From an uncultured Holophagales bacterium (GTDB lineage: Bacteria; Acidobacteriota; Thermoanaerobaculia; Multivoradales; UBA5704), in NCBI GenBank assembly GCA_963842525.1, contig CAWJGT010000001.1, forward strand, positions 726,215-790,214: a stretch of 64,000 bases of DNA, read 5' to 3'. The first letter of the stretch is position 1. Every line of letters begins with the position of its first letter. Shown one piece after another: positions 15,912 to 18,332 of the stretch. Under the pieces are notes generated by a model that saw nothing but the letters and a program-made list of their open reading frames with translations, made no database searches and was not told the origin of the DNA. The position numbers and the translations under genes were made by a program.

Positions 15912-17564
15912 CTAAGGCTTGCTGACAAGACGTTCGTACAACGCATTCACATAGGGATCCACGCGGTAATTGAGGATCTCCACGCCACATTGTCGCCAAT
16001 ATTCAATTCCCTGGCTTTTGAGCACAACCGCCCAGGATCTGGGACCTCGGTGGTTCTTATGGGCAAAACGGACGAGCGACTCGATGTCTGGAGGCGCCAG
16101 GCCGTGGCCCAGAAATAGCAGTGGACTTGCCAACAGTTTTTCCTGAATTTTCGCTGGGAGCACATCAGGGATGCGCGCTGCCAAGTCCCAGTAATCGAGT
16201 CGCGTGGCGGCGTAGCTCTCCGGCATGCGTTCATCGCGATCGAAGCCACCGTTCAGCTTCACTATGACAAATCCATCCGAAAGCTTACGGATATTGCGTG
16301 GCCGCTCAATGACACGAAGACCATTTTCCGTATCTTGATGATAGAAAAGTCCGCGATGGGGCCCGGCTGCCTGATAGGAGAACAGATGGTACGGAAGGCG
16401 GGCCTGTGTCAATCGATACTCGAGAACATCTTCGTAGTTGGTCGTAAAAATCATCGGAAACGGCAGCGGCTGTCCGGTATGGGTCCTGAGCTCGGCCCAA
16501 GCCGCGAACAGCTCGTGGGTGTCTGGCGCCTCGAATGGAGTGAGCCTGAAAAGCTTGCGGATCTCTGCATAAAGCTCCTCCCGGCTGTAGCGGTCCGCGA
16601 TGTACTGAGCCACCGCAAATCGATCCTCGCTGAGGGCCTCGCACTCGAAGATGCGCGCCAGCTCCCTATAGAACGCATCGGCCTTCATAGCCGGAGACGA
16701 GTAGATCGCGGAGCCCAGGAAAAACGTGAGCCGGCCATCTTCGATGAACCGAATCACGCGATCGAAATGGGCGTCTGGCGGTACGCTCCGAGGCAGGGCA
16801 GGAGACGGCTTGGGCGGCACGGCGGCGATCTGCGGCGGAAGCCCCTCGGCGACCGGTCTATCGATCGTCCGTACCGAGATTCGCTCGACGATGCCCGCCA
16901 CCAGGTTCTCGACCTGCAGAACATGCTCTTCGGGACTCTCGGCGTGATACCAGAGCGGCAGCACACCACACATCCTCAGGTGCTCCTCCTTCTTCACGAA
17001 ATCCGCCGGCTCGGTTGGTGCTCTCATGATGGCGAAGTGACGGATGCCGGCGTACTCGCGGTGGACTCGCTGAAGCAATCTGACCGTACGGTCCGGGCCC
17101 AGGCTTGCTCCTATGAACAAAAGAGAACGGCTCGAAAACAGCAGTCGCTCCGCCCCTGCGAGCAGCTCACGCTTCCTCTCAGGTTGCGCCCTGCCGTAGT
17201 TTGCATCGTAGTCCGACTTGGCGAAAGTGCGCCCGACGCGATCCTGCCAATCGCCGTGCAACTTGATGAGCACCCGGCGATTGCCGTGCAGGGCATCAAC
17301 GATCAGATCAGGCCTCGGCCCGGAAATCACGGACTCGAAAGGTGCACCATTGGCCTCGAAAGCACGTTCGAGGACTCGATCGAAGTTGGTAGTTACCACC
17401 GGGCCGCTCGCGAGCAATGGCAGTAGCGAAACCATTCCGGTGCGAAAATCAAAACCCTCAAGGTTGCTGTCGCCGGCGGATGCAGCGACCATGTTTTGAA
17501 ACCCGTCCGCTCCAAGCTCCTGAAGCAGCGCTTCCGCCGCGCCCTCATAGCTCCCCTTGCTCAA
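15912..17564 (-). CDS. Protein with two tandem SIR2_2-like domains (the first appears catalytic, the second degenerate)
   Basis: Domain 1 has '[14 protein letters not shown] ... LIKLHGDW'. Domain 2 has '[15 protein letters not shown] ... VKLNGGF', where His is replaced by Asn. It uses a TTG start and lies 60 nt downstream of 17625..18332. Confidence 0.65.
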
Positions 17565-17624
17565 CTGCCTTTCGATGGTCCTTTCGAGACGAGGCGGAGC
17601 TACGCTCAGGATGTCCAGCGGAGA

Positions 17625-18332
17625 TCAGAGGATGGTACCCATCTTGTCCCAGGTCGTCGCATCGTAGCCGAGCACTGGCTGACCACTGGCGGAGACCGTG
17701 CTGAAATCCCAGGCGGCGGTCTTCGAGAACATCAGCTTGGCGATCGCTTTGCTTGCTCCAGACGCGAACTTGCCCTTGTACTCGTTCTCGTAGATGGTCC
17801 CGCGCGGCGCGCGGCCGGAGGCGAGGGTCAAACCGAAGCCGTAGAGATGGTTGATCTCCTGCGCCGTACATGGCACGATCGCATTTTCGAGGATCTCGAC
17901 TCCGTAGGTATCCTTGAGCAACCCTTTGAGGTCGGCGAGAGTCCGGAGGGCATGCCCACCTCCAAGGATCCCCACCACCTCGTCGTCTTCGGAGTCGCTC
18001 TGTCCACCACTCGCCGCCGCCACAGCAGCAGCGGAGCTCACGTGAGCACGTTGGATCGTGCCTCGGAAAACGCCATTCGTCCTCTGTGCGGTTTTCGCCT
18101 GAGCCATCCGCGCCAAGGCGCTTTGCACGTGTGGCGCAACAGGTCGCGCCGCCGCATGCGGAGTCTGGACCAGGTTTGATACCGCTGATGAAGACTGTGT
18201 CGCCGGCAATGACCTCTCCGGCATCTTTGCTTGAGCCATACCCGCGACGGCTGCCTGCACATGCGCAGCCGGAGCACGCGCCGGGACAAGTGGCAGATGC
18301 GACGGCATCGACGGCTTTCCTGGCATGGGCAA
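17625..18332 (-). CDS. Hypothetical protein with an N-terminal Pro/Ala-rich region carrying a repeated 'AAHVQAA(L/V)..MAQAK' motif and an unknown C-terminal domain
   Basis: 'APAAHVQAAVAGMAQAK' and 'PVAPHVQSALARMAQAK' repeats. The motif is shared with the N-terminus of the ART-like protein at 55748..56740. It is co-oriented with the SIR2 gene. Confidence 0.5.
   Translation of the reverse strand: MPMPGKPSMPSHLPLVPARAPAAHVQAAVAGMAQAKMPERSLPATQSSSAVSNLVQTPHAAARPVAPHVQSALARMAQAKTAQRTNGVFRGTIQRAHVSSAAAVAAASGGQSDSEDDEVVGILGGGHALRTLADLKGLLKDTYGVEILENAIVPCTAQEINHLYGFGLTLASGRAPRGTIYENEYKGKFASGASKAIAKLMFSKTAAWDFSTVSASGQPVLGYDATTWDKMGTIL

What the first reader, a model, noticed from the sequence alone, without database searches (positions are those of the whole stretch)
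15912..18332. Tandem SIR2_2 protein, with a second domain lacking the catalytic His, co-transcribed with an unknown partner that shares an N-terminal motif with an ART-toxin gene
The 550-aa protein contains two SIR2_2-type domains. Domain 1 has TTNFD...KLHGDW. Domain 2 has TTNYED...KLNGGF, where His is replaced by Asn, so it may be a pseudo-enzyme sensor half. SIR2_2 domains are NAD-depleting effectors in Thoeris, DSR and SIR2-HerA systems, but I do not know of a tandem SIR2-pseudoSIR2 single-protein layout. It lies 60 nt downstream of a gene whose product has repeated 'AAHVQAA..MAQAK' motifs. That motif recurs in the ADP-ribosyltransferase-like protein at 55748..56740, which links two NAD-utilising loci.
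Basis: partly seen in the sequence, partly recalled or inferred. Interest (0 to 1): 0.65.

Follow-up and report, generated by a model that had tools for sequence, protein, structure and literature searches.

The report
Truncated double-SIR2 gene beside unrelated toxin-like gene
The gene really does encode two SIR2-type NAD-cleaving domains in tandem, the second lacking its catalytic histidine, but this copy has lost the NAD-binding start of its active domain, and the "partner" gene upstream is an unrelated toxin-like gene that ended up next to it by chance.

Summary
The sequence observation holds. ORF 15912..17564(-) has two Pfam SIR2_2 matches (70.3 and 44.9 bits, cut-off 24.5). The halves are homologous to each other (hhalign 97.3%, E 2.4e-11). 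The His of KLHGDW aligns with the Asn of KLNGG, and this holds in 112/115 family members.

The interpretation mostly fails.

- Full-length relatives are about 620 aa. The window copy lacks their first 51 codons, which carry strand beta1 and the F-x-GAG-x-S NAD-binding loop. SIR2 homology starts 12 nt after the TGA of the upstream gene, in the same frame. The missing segment is nowhere else in the window.
- The upstream 233-aa gene is not a partner. None of 62 related SIR2 loci has it. Its only full-length relative and other leader-sharing genes sit alone, without SIR2.
- The shared 'AAHVQAA..AQAK' motif is real. It is a modular N-terminal leader attached to different C-terminal domains: Scabin-like ART here, deaminase-like elsewhere. 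It does not link SIR2 to the ART gene.

Most likely this is a recently disrupted copy of a stand-alone tandem SIR2/pseudo-SIR2 gene, a candidate abortive-infection NADase, lying in a compositionally foreign 2.6-kb islet. The family layout looks undescribed but is a variant of a known kind. The two-gene system is not real.

The parts
15912..17564 (-). A 550-aa ORF starting at TTG. It is a 5'-truncated copy of a tandem SIR2_2 family whose full-length members are about 620 aa.
   Evidence: ORF. Two SIR2_2 stretches in Pfam. 242 homologues, the best 76% identical; 97 of the 120 listed are 600 aa or longer.
17565..17624 (-). A 60-nt 'spacer' that is really the in-frame remnant of SIR2 coding sequence (SPLDILSVAPPRLERTIERQ). 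Homology to family residues 52 onward begins at nt 17612. There is no start codon in this stretch.
   Evidence: Translation. tblastn with the N-termini of P0003, P0019 and P0062 starts at query residue 52 = nt 17612.
16992..17399 (-). Domain 1: the Pfam SIR2_2 match (aa 56-191), with TTNFD (17379-17393) and KLHGDW (17247-17264; His codon 17256-17258). Its beta1/GAGxS element is missing.
   Evidence: The His aligns with KomC H146.
16704..16724 (-). The degenerate glycine loop of domain 2, FFLGSAI, which corresponds to F-x-GAG-x-S in domain 1.
   Evidence: Family counts. Strand E346-349 in the AF2 model of P0019.
15981..16454 (-). Domain 2: the Pfam SIR2_2 match (aa 371-528), with TTNYED (16428-16445) and KLNGGF (16242-16259; Asn codon 16251-16253 in place of the catalytic His).
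17625..18326 (-). A complete 233-aa gene (ATG 18326, TGA 17625-17627). It has a repeat leader (aa 1-~95, with AAHVQAA at 18249-18269, APHVQSA at 18117-18137 and IQRA at 18045-18056), an Ala/Ser/acidic linker, and a C-terminal domain of about 120 aa with unknown function.
   Evidence: P0121 is 100% identical at 233 aa. Relatives P0122 and P0127 share the C-domain; P0123 and P0128-P0132 share the leader only.
18334..18339 (-). An AGGAGG ribosome-binding site 7 nt upstream of the ATG of the 233-aa gene.
   Evidence: Sequence.
55748..56680 (-). A second leader-bearing gene in the window. It has the same leader plan (AAHVQAA at 56588-56608, AAHVVAA at 56501-56521, IQRA at 56369-56380), a long Ser run, and a Scabin-like ADP-ribosyltransferase domain that scores below threshold.

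Best explanation
The 550-aa ORF is a recently 5'-truncated copy of a stand-alone gene family of about 620 aa. The family protein is an internal duplication of the SIR2_2 domain.

The two domains in full-length members:
- Domain 1 has everything a defence-type SIR2 NADase needs: beta1 plus F-x-GAG-x-S, the TTN Asn and the KLHGD His.
- Domain 2 is conserved but has His->Asn and GAG->G[SA]A.

Inferred mechanism of the full-length protein: domain 1 hydrolyses NAD+. Domain 2 acts as a built-in non-catalytic partner, either mimicking the second subunit of a SIR2 dimer or serving as a regulatory or ligand-sensing half. Activation on infection would deplete NAD+ and abort the infection.

What is shown for the window: the first 51 codons of this gene are gone, including helix alpha0, strand beta1 and the GAGxS loop. 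A complete but unrelated 233-aa gene ends with TGA 12 nt before SIR2 homology resumes. The first usable start codon (TTG 17564) removes 67-69 residues in all.

Inferred consequence: the window protein cannot bind NAD+ in its only His-bearing domain and is non-functional as an NADase. The rest of the ORF shows no decay, so the event is recent.

The upstream gene belongs to a small family of solitary, modular proteins. Each has a leader, a low-complexity linker and a variable C-terminal domain, which is a polymorphic-toxin-like plan. It lies next to SIR2 through an insertion or deletion event inside a compositionally foreign 2.6-kb islet between two host flavoenzyme genes.
For: Truncation:
- Homologues are 612-657 aa. 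They carry an extra N-terminus, 'GLVPF[LIV]GAG[ILV]S..FKDWK', which is present in all 106 members that cover that region.
- tblastn places the start of homology at family residue 52 = nt 17612. The missing segment gets no significant hit anywhere in the 64 kb.
- The frame runs continuously back to the TGA of the upstream gene.
- That segment aligns with the beta1-GAGLS-alpha1 element of SeThsA 7uxt and of KomC 8zsf. It is strand E32-35 plus helix H37-43 in the AF2 model (pLDDT 91.1, pTM 0.89).
- An independent Logan assembly (L001) has the same junction at 99.97% identity.

Tandem and pseudo-domain layout:
- The fold matches KomC, ThsA, DSR2 and FAM118B.
- H146N is the mutant deposited for KomC with NAD fragments (9xvc).

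No partnership:
- Contexts of homologues vary: an ECF sigma factor, an M15 peptidase, a second SIR2_2 gene with an S8 peptidase, TA genes. Only the S8 peptidase recurs, in 4 of 22 loci.
- The 233-aa protein is absent from all SIR2 loci.
- The loci of P0122, P0131 and P0123 lack SIR2.

Modular leader.

Foreign origin: GC3 is 0.67 for SIR2 and 0.71 for the upstream gene, against 0.84-0.90 for host genes.

Recent event: the window copy deviates at 4 of 208 columns that are at least 90% conserved, against a family median of 5.

Truncation recurs in the family: an independent 5'-truncated copy starts at family residue about 108-112 in L009/L017.
Against: - The remaining 550 codons are intact and keep the conserved residues. 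This is also what continued selection on a truncated protein with some other role would produce.
- The two ORFs are in the same frame, separated by a single TGA. This has a 1-in-3 chance of arising by accident, but it leaves room for read-through or a modular arrangement.
- No member of the family has been tested for NADase activity or phage defence.
- No empty-site or full-length allele from a sister genome was found to show the direction of the event.
- I could not inspect the model coordinates, so the intramolecular 'dimer' geometry is untested.
Confidence: 0.7

Rival explanations
1. One reading: the two genes form a functional two-gene NAD-depleting defence operon. The upstream protein would be the sensor or partner of the tandem SIR2 effector.
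For: The genes are on the same strand with a 60-nt gap and no terminator-like site between them. Both are compositionally foreign. The region is rich in defence-type genes: an FxsC-like TIR, a KGGVGR/nSTAND1/TPR-S protein, and an MBL-fold protein resembling Avs1a/LmuA.
Against: - The partner is absent from all 62 loci of the SIR2 family.
- There are only 10 relatives of it among 1.84 billion representatives, and none of those examined is next to SIR2.
- The junction cuts inside the Rossmann fold of the catalytic domain.
Confidence: 0.07
2. The truncated SIR2 protein is kept because it has a new, non-catalytic role. It could be an immunity or antidote protein for the upstream toxin-like gene, or a dominant-negative or decoy form of a SIR2 system.
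For: - Immunity genes usually lie directly downstream of polymorphic-toxin genes (general knowledge).
- The ORF is intact and has no excess of changes at conserved positions.
- Domain 2, including its TTN Asn, is complete.
Against: - The toxin-like relatives P0122 and P0131 have no gene downstream on the same strand, so this family does not visibly need a linked immunity gene.
- The nearest homologues of the SIR2 part are full-length and solitary.
- The start codon is TTG with only a weak purine-rich stretch before it.
- Low divergence is equally explained by a recent event.
Confidence: 0.13
3. The SIR2 fragment is a stored 'orphan' effector module placed in frame behind a polymorphic-toxin gene. 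Recombination or TGA read-through would then produce a leader-SIR2 NADase toxin.
For: The frames match and are separated by a single TGA. The leader family swaps C-terminal domains.
Against: - No leader-bearing protein with a SIR2 domain exists among the hits of the exhaustive search.
- The fragment begins inside the fold, after beta1/GAGxS, so any fusion would lack the NAD-binding loop.
- The same frame has a 1-in-3 chance of arising by accident.
Confidence: 0.04
4. The truncation is an artefact: an assembly chimera, or a mis-called start of a gene that is really full length.
For: The neighbouring nitronate monooxygenase gene carries a 1-nt frameshift, so the assembly may contain indel errors. 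One homologue, P0043, looked truncated only because its start was mis-called.
Against: - The N-terminal 51 residues are absent in all six frames of the whole window. An indel cannot remove them.
- An independent Logan contig reproduces the junction.
- The upstream gene ends at its natural C-terminus, as in P0122 and P0127.
Confidence: 0.03
5. The family is a housekeeping sirtuin-type protein deacylase rather than a conflict or defence NADase.
For: No experiment exists for any member.
Against: - The match is to SIR2_2 (PF13289). The best sequence and fold matches are ThsA, KomC, DSR2 and FAM118B, not canonical sirtuins.
- The distribution is patchy across Acidobacteriota, Betaproteobacteria, Planctomycetota, Verrucomicrobiota, Gemmatimonadota and Myxococcota.
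- Neighbourhoods vary and are often TA-rich or transposase-rich.
- Codon composition in the window is foreign.
Confidence: 0.03

Closest known systems
ThsA, the SIR2-SLOG NADase of type I Thoeris (SeThsA 7uxt, BcThsA 6lhx/8bto)
   Same: It is the best solved relative by sequence profile (7uxt_B, E 3.5e-10, aligned over family residues 31-304) and among the top fold matches. It has the same GAGxS, TTN-Asn and K-x-H-G-D motifs in domain 1. PADLOC ThsA is the best defence-model hit (E 6.8e-12).
   Different: There is no SLOG domain and no ThsB partner. The C-terminal half is a second, His-less SIR2_2 domain instead. The PADLOC match covers only the SIR2 core. The window copy also lacks the GAGxS segment.
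KomC, a stand-alone SIR2 NADase of 264 aa that forms helical filaments (8zsf, 9xvc H146N)
   Same: It is the top Foldseek hit (E 5.5e-11, TM 0.72 normalised to KomC). The catalytic His of domain 1 aligns with KomC H146. Domain 2 naturally carries Asn at that position, the same substitution as in the deposited H146N mutant.
   Different: KomC is a single domain that works with partner proteins (the PDB entries are KomBC complexes). Here two SIR2_2 domains are fused in one chain and no conserved partner is present.
DSR2, a defence-associated sirtuin with an N-terminal SIR2 and a C-terminal alpha-solenoid sensor of about 700 aa
   Same: It is a single-gene SIR2 NADase defence system. Its SIR2 domain superposes on the model (TM 0.70-0.75 for the partial chains).
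   Different: There is no solenoid sensor, and the protein is about 620 aa. If sensing occurs, it would have to be done by the pseudo-SIR2 half.
The human FAM118A/FAM118B pair of non-canonical sirtuins
   Same: The fold is SIR2_2-like. Two paralogous SIR2-like proteins act together: co-expression is needed for strong NAD depletion (PMC12700824). This is conceptually close to a pair of SIR2 domains working as one unit.
   Different: They are separate polypeptides, both with catalytic residues, and they form filaments. Here the pair is fused and one half has lost its His.
Polymorphic-toxin-type modular effectors, such as Scabin/pierisin-type ADP-ribosyltransferases and secreted deaminase toxins (comparison for the upstream gene)
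   Same: A conserved N-terminal leader, a low-complexity linker and interchangeable C-terminal domains: Scabin-like in the window, HAE...PCxxC deaminase-like in P0131.
   Different: The leader matches no Pfam, NCBIfam, PADLOC or PHROGs model. No linked immunity gene or secretion apparatus is seen. The toxin-domain matches are all below threshold. The C-terminal domain of the 233-aa protein has unknown fold and function (AF2 pLDDT 56).

Membership tests
Pfam SIR2_2 (PF13289) | Domain score at or above the gathering cut-off of 24.5 bits, for each half scanned alone | tested here: met
   N half 70.3 bits (aa 56-191). C half 44.9 bits (aa ~371-528).
Catalytically competent defence SIR2 NADase (ThsA/DSR2/KomC type) | Rossmann beta1 strand followed by the GAGxS NAD-binding loop | tested here: not met
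   The F-x-GAG-x-S loop of domain 1 is present in all 106 homologues that cover it. It is absent from the window in all frames. Domain 2 has FFLGSAI instead.
Catalytically competent defence SIR2 NADase (ThsA/DSR2/KomC type) | Catalytic Asn (TTN) and His (K-x-H-G) | tested here: inconclusive
   Domain 1 has both: TTNFD, and KLHGDW whose His aligns with KomC H146. Domain 2 keeps the Asn but has Asn in place of the His, in 112 of 115 members.
Catalytically competent defence SIR2 NADase (ThsA/DSR2/KomC type) | NAD+ hydrolysis and phage-triggered abortive infection | not testable with these tools
   There are no experimental data for any member. No literature hit for this architecture.
Thoeris type I | SLOG domain C-terminal to SIR2, and an adjacent ThsB (TIR) gene | tested here: not met
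   Only SIR2_2 is found. The PADLOC ThsA match covers model positions 106-230 of 478 only. The nearest TIR gene (21028..22296, +) is FxsC-type, lies about 2.7 kb from the upstream gene (about 3.5 kb from the SIR2 ORF) on the other strand, and is paired with a KGGVGR/STAND gene.
DSR2 | Long C-terminal alpha-solenoid sensor domain (protein of about 1000 aa) | tested here: not met
   The family is about 620 aa, and the second half is SIR2_2.
SIR2-HerA | Adjacent HerA ATPase gene | tested here: not met
   No HerA in the window neighbourhood or in homologue loci.
Tandem SIR2_2 family (about 620 aa; P0001-P0120, e.g. the 'SIR2 family protein' of Variovorax sp. Sphag1AA) | Colinear over the full length, including the N-terminal ~70 residues | tested here: not met
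   The window copy is 76% identical to its best homologues (55-76% across the eight closer homologues aligned) and colinear from family residue 52 to the natural C-terminus. Residues 1-51 are missing.
Conserved two-gene system (233-aa gene plus SIR2) | The two genes co-occur in other genomes | tested here: not met
   tblastn with the 233-aa protein gives no hit in 62 SIR2 loci other than the same organism. The loci of P0122, P0123 and P0131 lack SIR2.
Leader-bearing modular (polymorphic-toxin-like) proteins | A shared N-terminal module joined to different C-terminal domains | tested here: met
   P0123 and P0128-P0132 share residues 1-~100 with the 233-aa protein but differ after the linker. 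The window ART-like gene has the same plan.
Leader-bearing modular (polymorphic-toxin-like) proteins | A recognised toxin domain and a linked immunity gene | tested here: inconclusive
   Scabin-like 23.2 bits (cut-off 27). APOBEC4-like 17.5 bits (cut-off 27.2). The C-domain of the 233-aa protein has no match at all. L002 and L064 have no gene downstream on the same strand.

The most novel reading that the evidence does not exclude
The full-length tandem SIR2_2 family has at least 242 members across at least six phyla, and older relatives still have His in both halves. It would be an undescribed single-protein anti-phage NADase in which an internally duplicated, catalytically dead SIR2 domain serves as an intramolecular partner or sensor. 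That domain would replace the separate sensor domains (SLOG, solenoid, STAND) or the homo-oligomer contacts used by known SIR2 defence proteins. The window would then hold a freshly inactivated allele of such a system.
Probability: 0.35. Interest if true: 0.55.

Novelty: new variant of a known kind. Interest (0 to 1): 0.35.

Why it matters
If the family reading is right, it adds a compact layout to the SIR2 NADase defence repertoire: a fused active-plus-dead domain pair. It also offers a natural series for asking how pseudo-enzyme halves regulate SIR2 activation, because the second domain carries His, Asn, Asp or Ser in different clades.

For this window the practical message is a caution. The apparent operon is a junction created by gene disruption. 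The local copy should not be used as the representative for experiments. A full-length member should be used instead, such as P0019 from a Thermoanaerobaculia MAG or P0062 from Variovorax sp. Sphag1AA.

The repeat leader shared by solitary toxin-like genes is a separate small lead towards an unknown delivery or processing signal.

Tried and rejected
- AF2 of the C-terminal domain of the 233-aa protein, with only 3 sequences in the alignment, gave pLDDT 56.4. That is too poor for a fold search, so none was run.
- The 233-aa protein has no match in Pfam, NCBIfam, PADLOC or PHROGs. Only chance-level matches (E >= 0.14) appeared among PDB sequences.
- P0126 (2741 aa, 39 matched stretches) first looked like a giant toxin carrying the same C-domain. 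It is a zinc-knuckle repeat protein matched through its repeats, so I rejected it.
- I searched for an 'empty site', with OYE next to NMO and no islet, using the OYE protein against metagenome contigs. The best relatives were only 74% identical and none had NMO nearby.
- Direct and inverted repeats around the islet are short two-copy matches of the kind expected by chance. The promoter and terminator scans were at or below shuffle expectation.
- The upstream DNA of the two leader genes shows no shared element.
- I asked whether the 'VVGILGGG' stretch of the upstream protein could supply the missing GAGxS loop in trans. I rejected this because the glycines are not conserved in P0122 or P0127.
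- P0043 looked like a second GAGxS-less variant, but it is a mis-called start, and the motif is encoded in frame upstream.
- The afdb50 fold library was unavailable.
- I could not read the model coordinates, so the geometry of the two halves could not be compared with the SIR2 dimers of ThsA or DSR2.
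Full report
**1. What is at the coordinates**

ORF 15912..17564(-) encodes 550 aa from a TTG start. Pfam finds SIR2_2 (PF13289) with two stretches. Scanned separately, the N half scores 70.3 bits (aa 56-191) and the C half 44.9 bits (aa ~371-528), against a gathering score of 24.5.

| Motif | Coordinates |
|---|---|
| TTNFD | 17379-17393 |
| KLHGDW | 17247-17264 |
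| FFLGSAI | 16704-16724 |
| TTNYED | 16428-16445 |
| KLNGGF | 16242-16259 |

I built profiles of the two halves from 99 family members. They align with hhalign probability 97.3% and E 2.4e-11 over 138 columns. TTNFD aligns with TTNYD, and the His of KLHGDW aligns with the Asn of KLNGG. The tandem layout and the His->Asn change are therefore real.

**2. The family**

The protein search returned 242 relatives. The 120 listed are 44-76% identical, and 97 of them are 600 aa or longer. Motif counts across 121 aligned sequences:

| Domain | Motif | Count |
|---|---|---|
| 1 | F[LIV]GAG[ILV]S | all 106 that cover the region |
| 1 | TTNFD | 113 |
| 1 | KLHGDW | 116 |
| 2 | FFLG[SA]A[IV] | — |
| 2 | TTNYDD | — |
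| 2 | K[LM]NGG (Asn instead of His) | 112 of 115 |

An AlphaFold2 model of the full-length member P0019 is confident (pLDDT 91.1, pTM 0.89). It shows the same order of strands and helices twice. Foldseek against the PDB gives KomC, BcThsA, DSR2, SeThsA and FAM118B as best matches. The sequence profile hits SeThsA 7uxt at E 3.5e-10 and KomC at E 2e-06. In that alignment the domain 1 His corresponds to KomC H146. The PDB holds a KomC(H146N) mutant (9xvc), which is the very substitution that domain 2 carries naturally.

More distant full-length relatives (31-37% identity) come from Acidimicrobiia, Bryobacterales, Solibacteraceae, Planctomycetota and Hyalangium. All have two SIR2_2 stretches. At the domain 2 position they carry His (L023, L024, L025), Asp (L026, L028, L029) or Ser (L027). 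The duplication is therefore older than the loss of the His, and the His was lost in more than one way.

**3.

Homologues carry about 68 more N-terminal residues, including 'GLVPFLGAGISTAFGFKDWK'. In the window, the SIR2 reading frame stays open upstream of the TTG, back to the TGA of the upstream gene (17625-17627), which is in the same frame: '...[38 protein letters not shown]'.

tblastn with three homologue N-termini starts at query residue 52 = nt 17612, which is 12 nt after the stop. It finds no significant match to residues 1-51 anywhere in the 64 kb. The lost piece is strand E32-35 plus helix H37-43 of the model, and it aligns with the beta1-GAGLS-alpha1 element of ThsA and KomC. By established knowledge of Rossmann and sirtuin folds, this element binds the NAD pyrophosphate. 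Without it, the only domain that has the catalytic His should not bind NAD+.

Three observations argue against an artefact:
- A separate Logan assembly (L001) reproduces the junction at 99.97% identity.
- The upstream gene ends at its natural C-terminus, as in P0122 and P0127.
- P0043, which at first also looked shortened, simply has a mis-called start.

A second, independent truncation starts at family residue ~108-112 and is flanked by toxin-antitoxin genes. It occurs in L009/L017. Decayed copies of this family are therefore not rare.

The rest of the window ORF is not decayed. It departs from the consensus at 4 of 208 columns that are at least 90% conserved, against a family median of 5. 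Either the truncation is recent or the remainder is still under selection.

**4. The 'partner'**

The upstream gene starts at ATG 18326 behind an AGGAGG site and encodes 233 aa. The word-indexed search found only 3 relatives among 5.8 billion proteins. The exhaustive HMMER search found 10 among 1.84 billion representatives, and one of those (P0126) is a spurious repeat match.

- P0122 and P0127 share the C-terminal domain of about 120 aa.
- P0123 and P0128-P0132 share only the leader and continue into different C-terminal regions. P0131 has an HAE...PCxxC deaminase-like stretch, APOBEC4 at 17.5 bits, which is below threshold.

The leader consensus is MPQKPxFP..LAPARxPAAHVQAAxxRxAQAKxPE..RPVAPHVQSALARxAQAK, with two to four repeats. 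It is followed by AIQ(R/L)A and a low-complexity linker.

The ART-like gene in the window has the same plan. Its likely start is ATG 56680. A run of about 30 Ser follows the leader, then a Scabin-like domain that scores 23.2 bits against a cut-off of 27, with PDB Scabin at E 0.01. The shared motif is therefore genuine, but it marks a family of modular, solitary, toxin-like genes.

In L002, L064 and L066 such genes stand alone, with no SIR2; in L002 and L064 there is also no gene downstream on the same strand. In the other direction, the neighbours of full-length tandem SIR2 genes vary. Clustering of flanking ORFs across 22 loci finds only an S8 peptidase recurring, in 4 loci. tblastn with the 233-aa protein is negative in all SIR2 loci. 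The pair in the window is therefore not a conserved system.

**5. Setting**

The two genes form a 2.6-kb islet between a host-like old-yellow-enzyme gene (14840..15898, -) and a nitronate monooxygenase gene (from 18505, +).

| Gene | GC3 |
|---|---|
| SIR2 | 0.67 |
| Upstream 233-aa gene | 0.71 |
| ART-like gene | 0.66 |
| Host genes | 0.84-0.90 |

Nearby are other conflict-type genes:
- an MBL-fold protein with Avs1a/LmuA-like matches
- a 658-aa HExxH protein
- an FxsC-like TIR gene fused in operon with a KGGVGR-AAA/nSTAND1/TPR-S protein

The family also has a patchy phylogenetic spread and often sits in TA-rich or transposase-rich surroundings. Together these features fit an accessory, defence-type role rather than a housekeeping one.

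**6. Mechanism**

Shown:
- the domain architecture
- the motif states of the two domains
- the truncation
- the lack of co-occurrence with the upstream gene
- the modular nature of the leader

Inferred:
- Full-length proteins are NADases whose domain 1 is catalytic.
- Domain 2 is a non-catalytic partner or sensor. It keeps the TTN Asn and acidic residues, so its pocket may still bind a nucleotide.
- Activation leads to NAD+ depletion and abortive infection, by analogy with ThsA, DSR2 and KomC.
- The window copy is inactive.

Rivals are scored in the report sections: a real two-gene system, a new immunity or decoy role for the truncated protein, an orphan module for toxin diversification, an assembly artefact, and a housekeeping sirtuin.

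**7. Novelty and verdict**

I found no description of a fused SIR2/pseudo-SIR2 protein in the held literature. The search was by keyword and is limited. The family layout is a new variant of a known kind, the SIR2_2 NADase effectors. The specific locus is a disrupted copy, and the proposed operon and 'NAD link' do not hold.

Interest is moderate to low for the locus (0.35). It is somewhat higher for the family if it is shown to be a single-protein defence system.

Noticed in passing
window 21028-25880 (+): An FxsC-like TIR protein (NCBIfam FxsC_Nterm 106.7 bits, below its 130-bit cut-off; FxsC_Cterm 93.4 bits, above its 55-bit cut-off) overlaps by 4 nt a 1195-aa protein with a KGGVGR-motif AAA ATPase, the nSTAND1 C-terminal region, a TPR-S sensor and a TIR-like stretch. 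PADLOC matches PDC-M28B. This looks like a STAND/TIR conflict system, separate from the SIR2 gene.
   Followed up: partly
window 10879-14539 (-): An MBL-fold protein with a Lys/Ala-rich N-terminus gives N-terminal matches to the LmuA, Avs1a and 6A-MBL models. It lies directly downstream of a 658-aa protein that has an HExxH motif (VVAHETTHALLDG) and no Pfam, NCBIfam, PADLOC or PHROGs match. This may be a two-gene defence candidate.
   Followed up: partly
window 18505-19627 (+), shift near 18908-18917: The nitronate monooxygenase gene is split over two frames by a single-base frameshift. The N-terminal ~135 aa are in one frame, and Pfam NMO positions 111-330 are in ORF 18917..19627. This is either a pseudogene or an indel error in the assembly.
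   Followed up: partly
window 55748-56680 (-): The ART-like gene carries an uninterrupted run of about 30 serines between the leader and the Scabin-like domain. It sits alone between a MacB/FtsX-type permease gene and what looks like a holA-like gene, an assignment made by eye from the translation only. No gene follows it on the same strand.
   Followed up: partly
window 50213-50881 (+): A 222-aa ORF lies in the lowest-GC kilobase of the window (GC 0.52, against about 0.68-0.70). It has no obvious relatives by eye and is probably another recently acquired gene.
   Followed up: no
L006/L019 (Variovorax sp. Sphag1AA) 5885-11616; also L013, L022, L025: In Variovorax the tandem SIR2 gene is divergently paired with a second 674-aa SIR2_2 gene and followed by a Peptidase_S8 gene. 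An S8 peptidase homologue recurs near tandem SIR2 genes in 4 of 22 loci. It may be a clade-specific partner.
   Followed up: partly
L009 761-2314 and L017 6001-7521: An independent 5'-truncated copy of the same SIR2 family starts at about family residue 108-112. It is embedded among PhdYeFM, MazE and BrnT toxin-antitoxin genes in Thermoanaerobaculia contigs.
   Followed up: partly
L023-L029 (distant tandem relatives): The catalytic-His position of the second SIR2_2 domain is His in three lineages, Asp in three and Ser in one, against Asn in the window's clade. This points to repeated degeneration of domain 2 after an old duplication.
   Followed up: partly
P0131 (L064 1473-3239): A 588-aa protein bears the same leader. 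Its C-terminal region has an HAE...PCxxC deaminase-like motif, a Lys/Glu-rich stretch, and a 'GSGMNCLIRALL' motif that looks OTU/cysteine-protease-like by eye. The gene is solitary.
   Followed up: no
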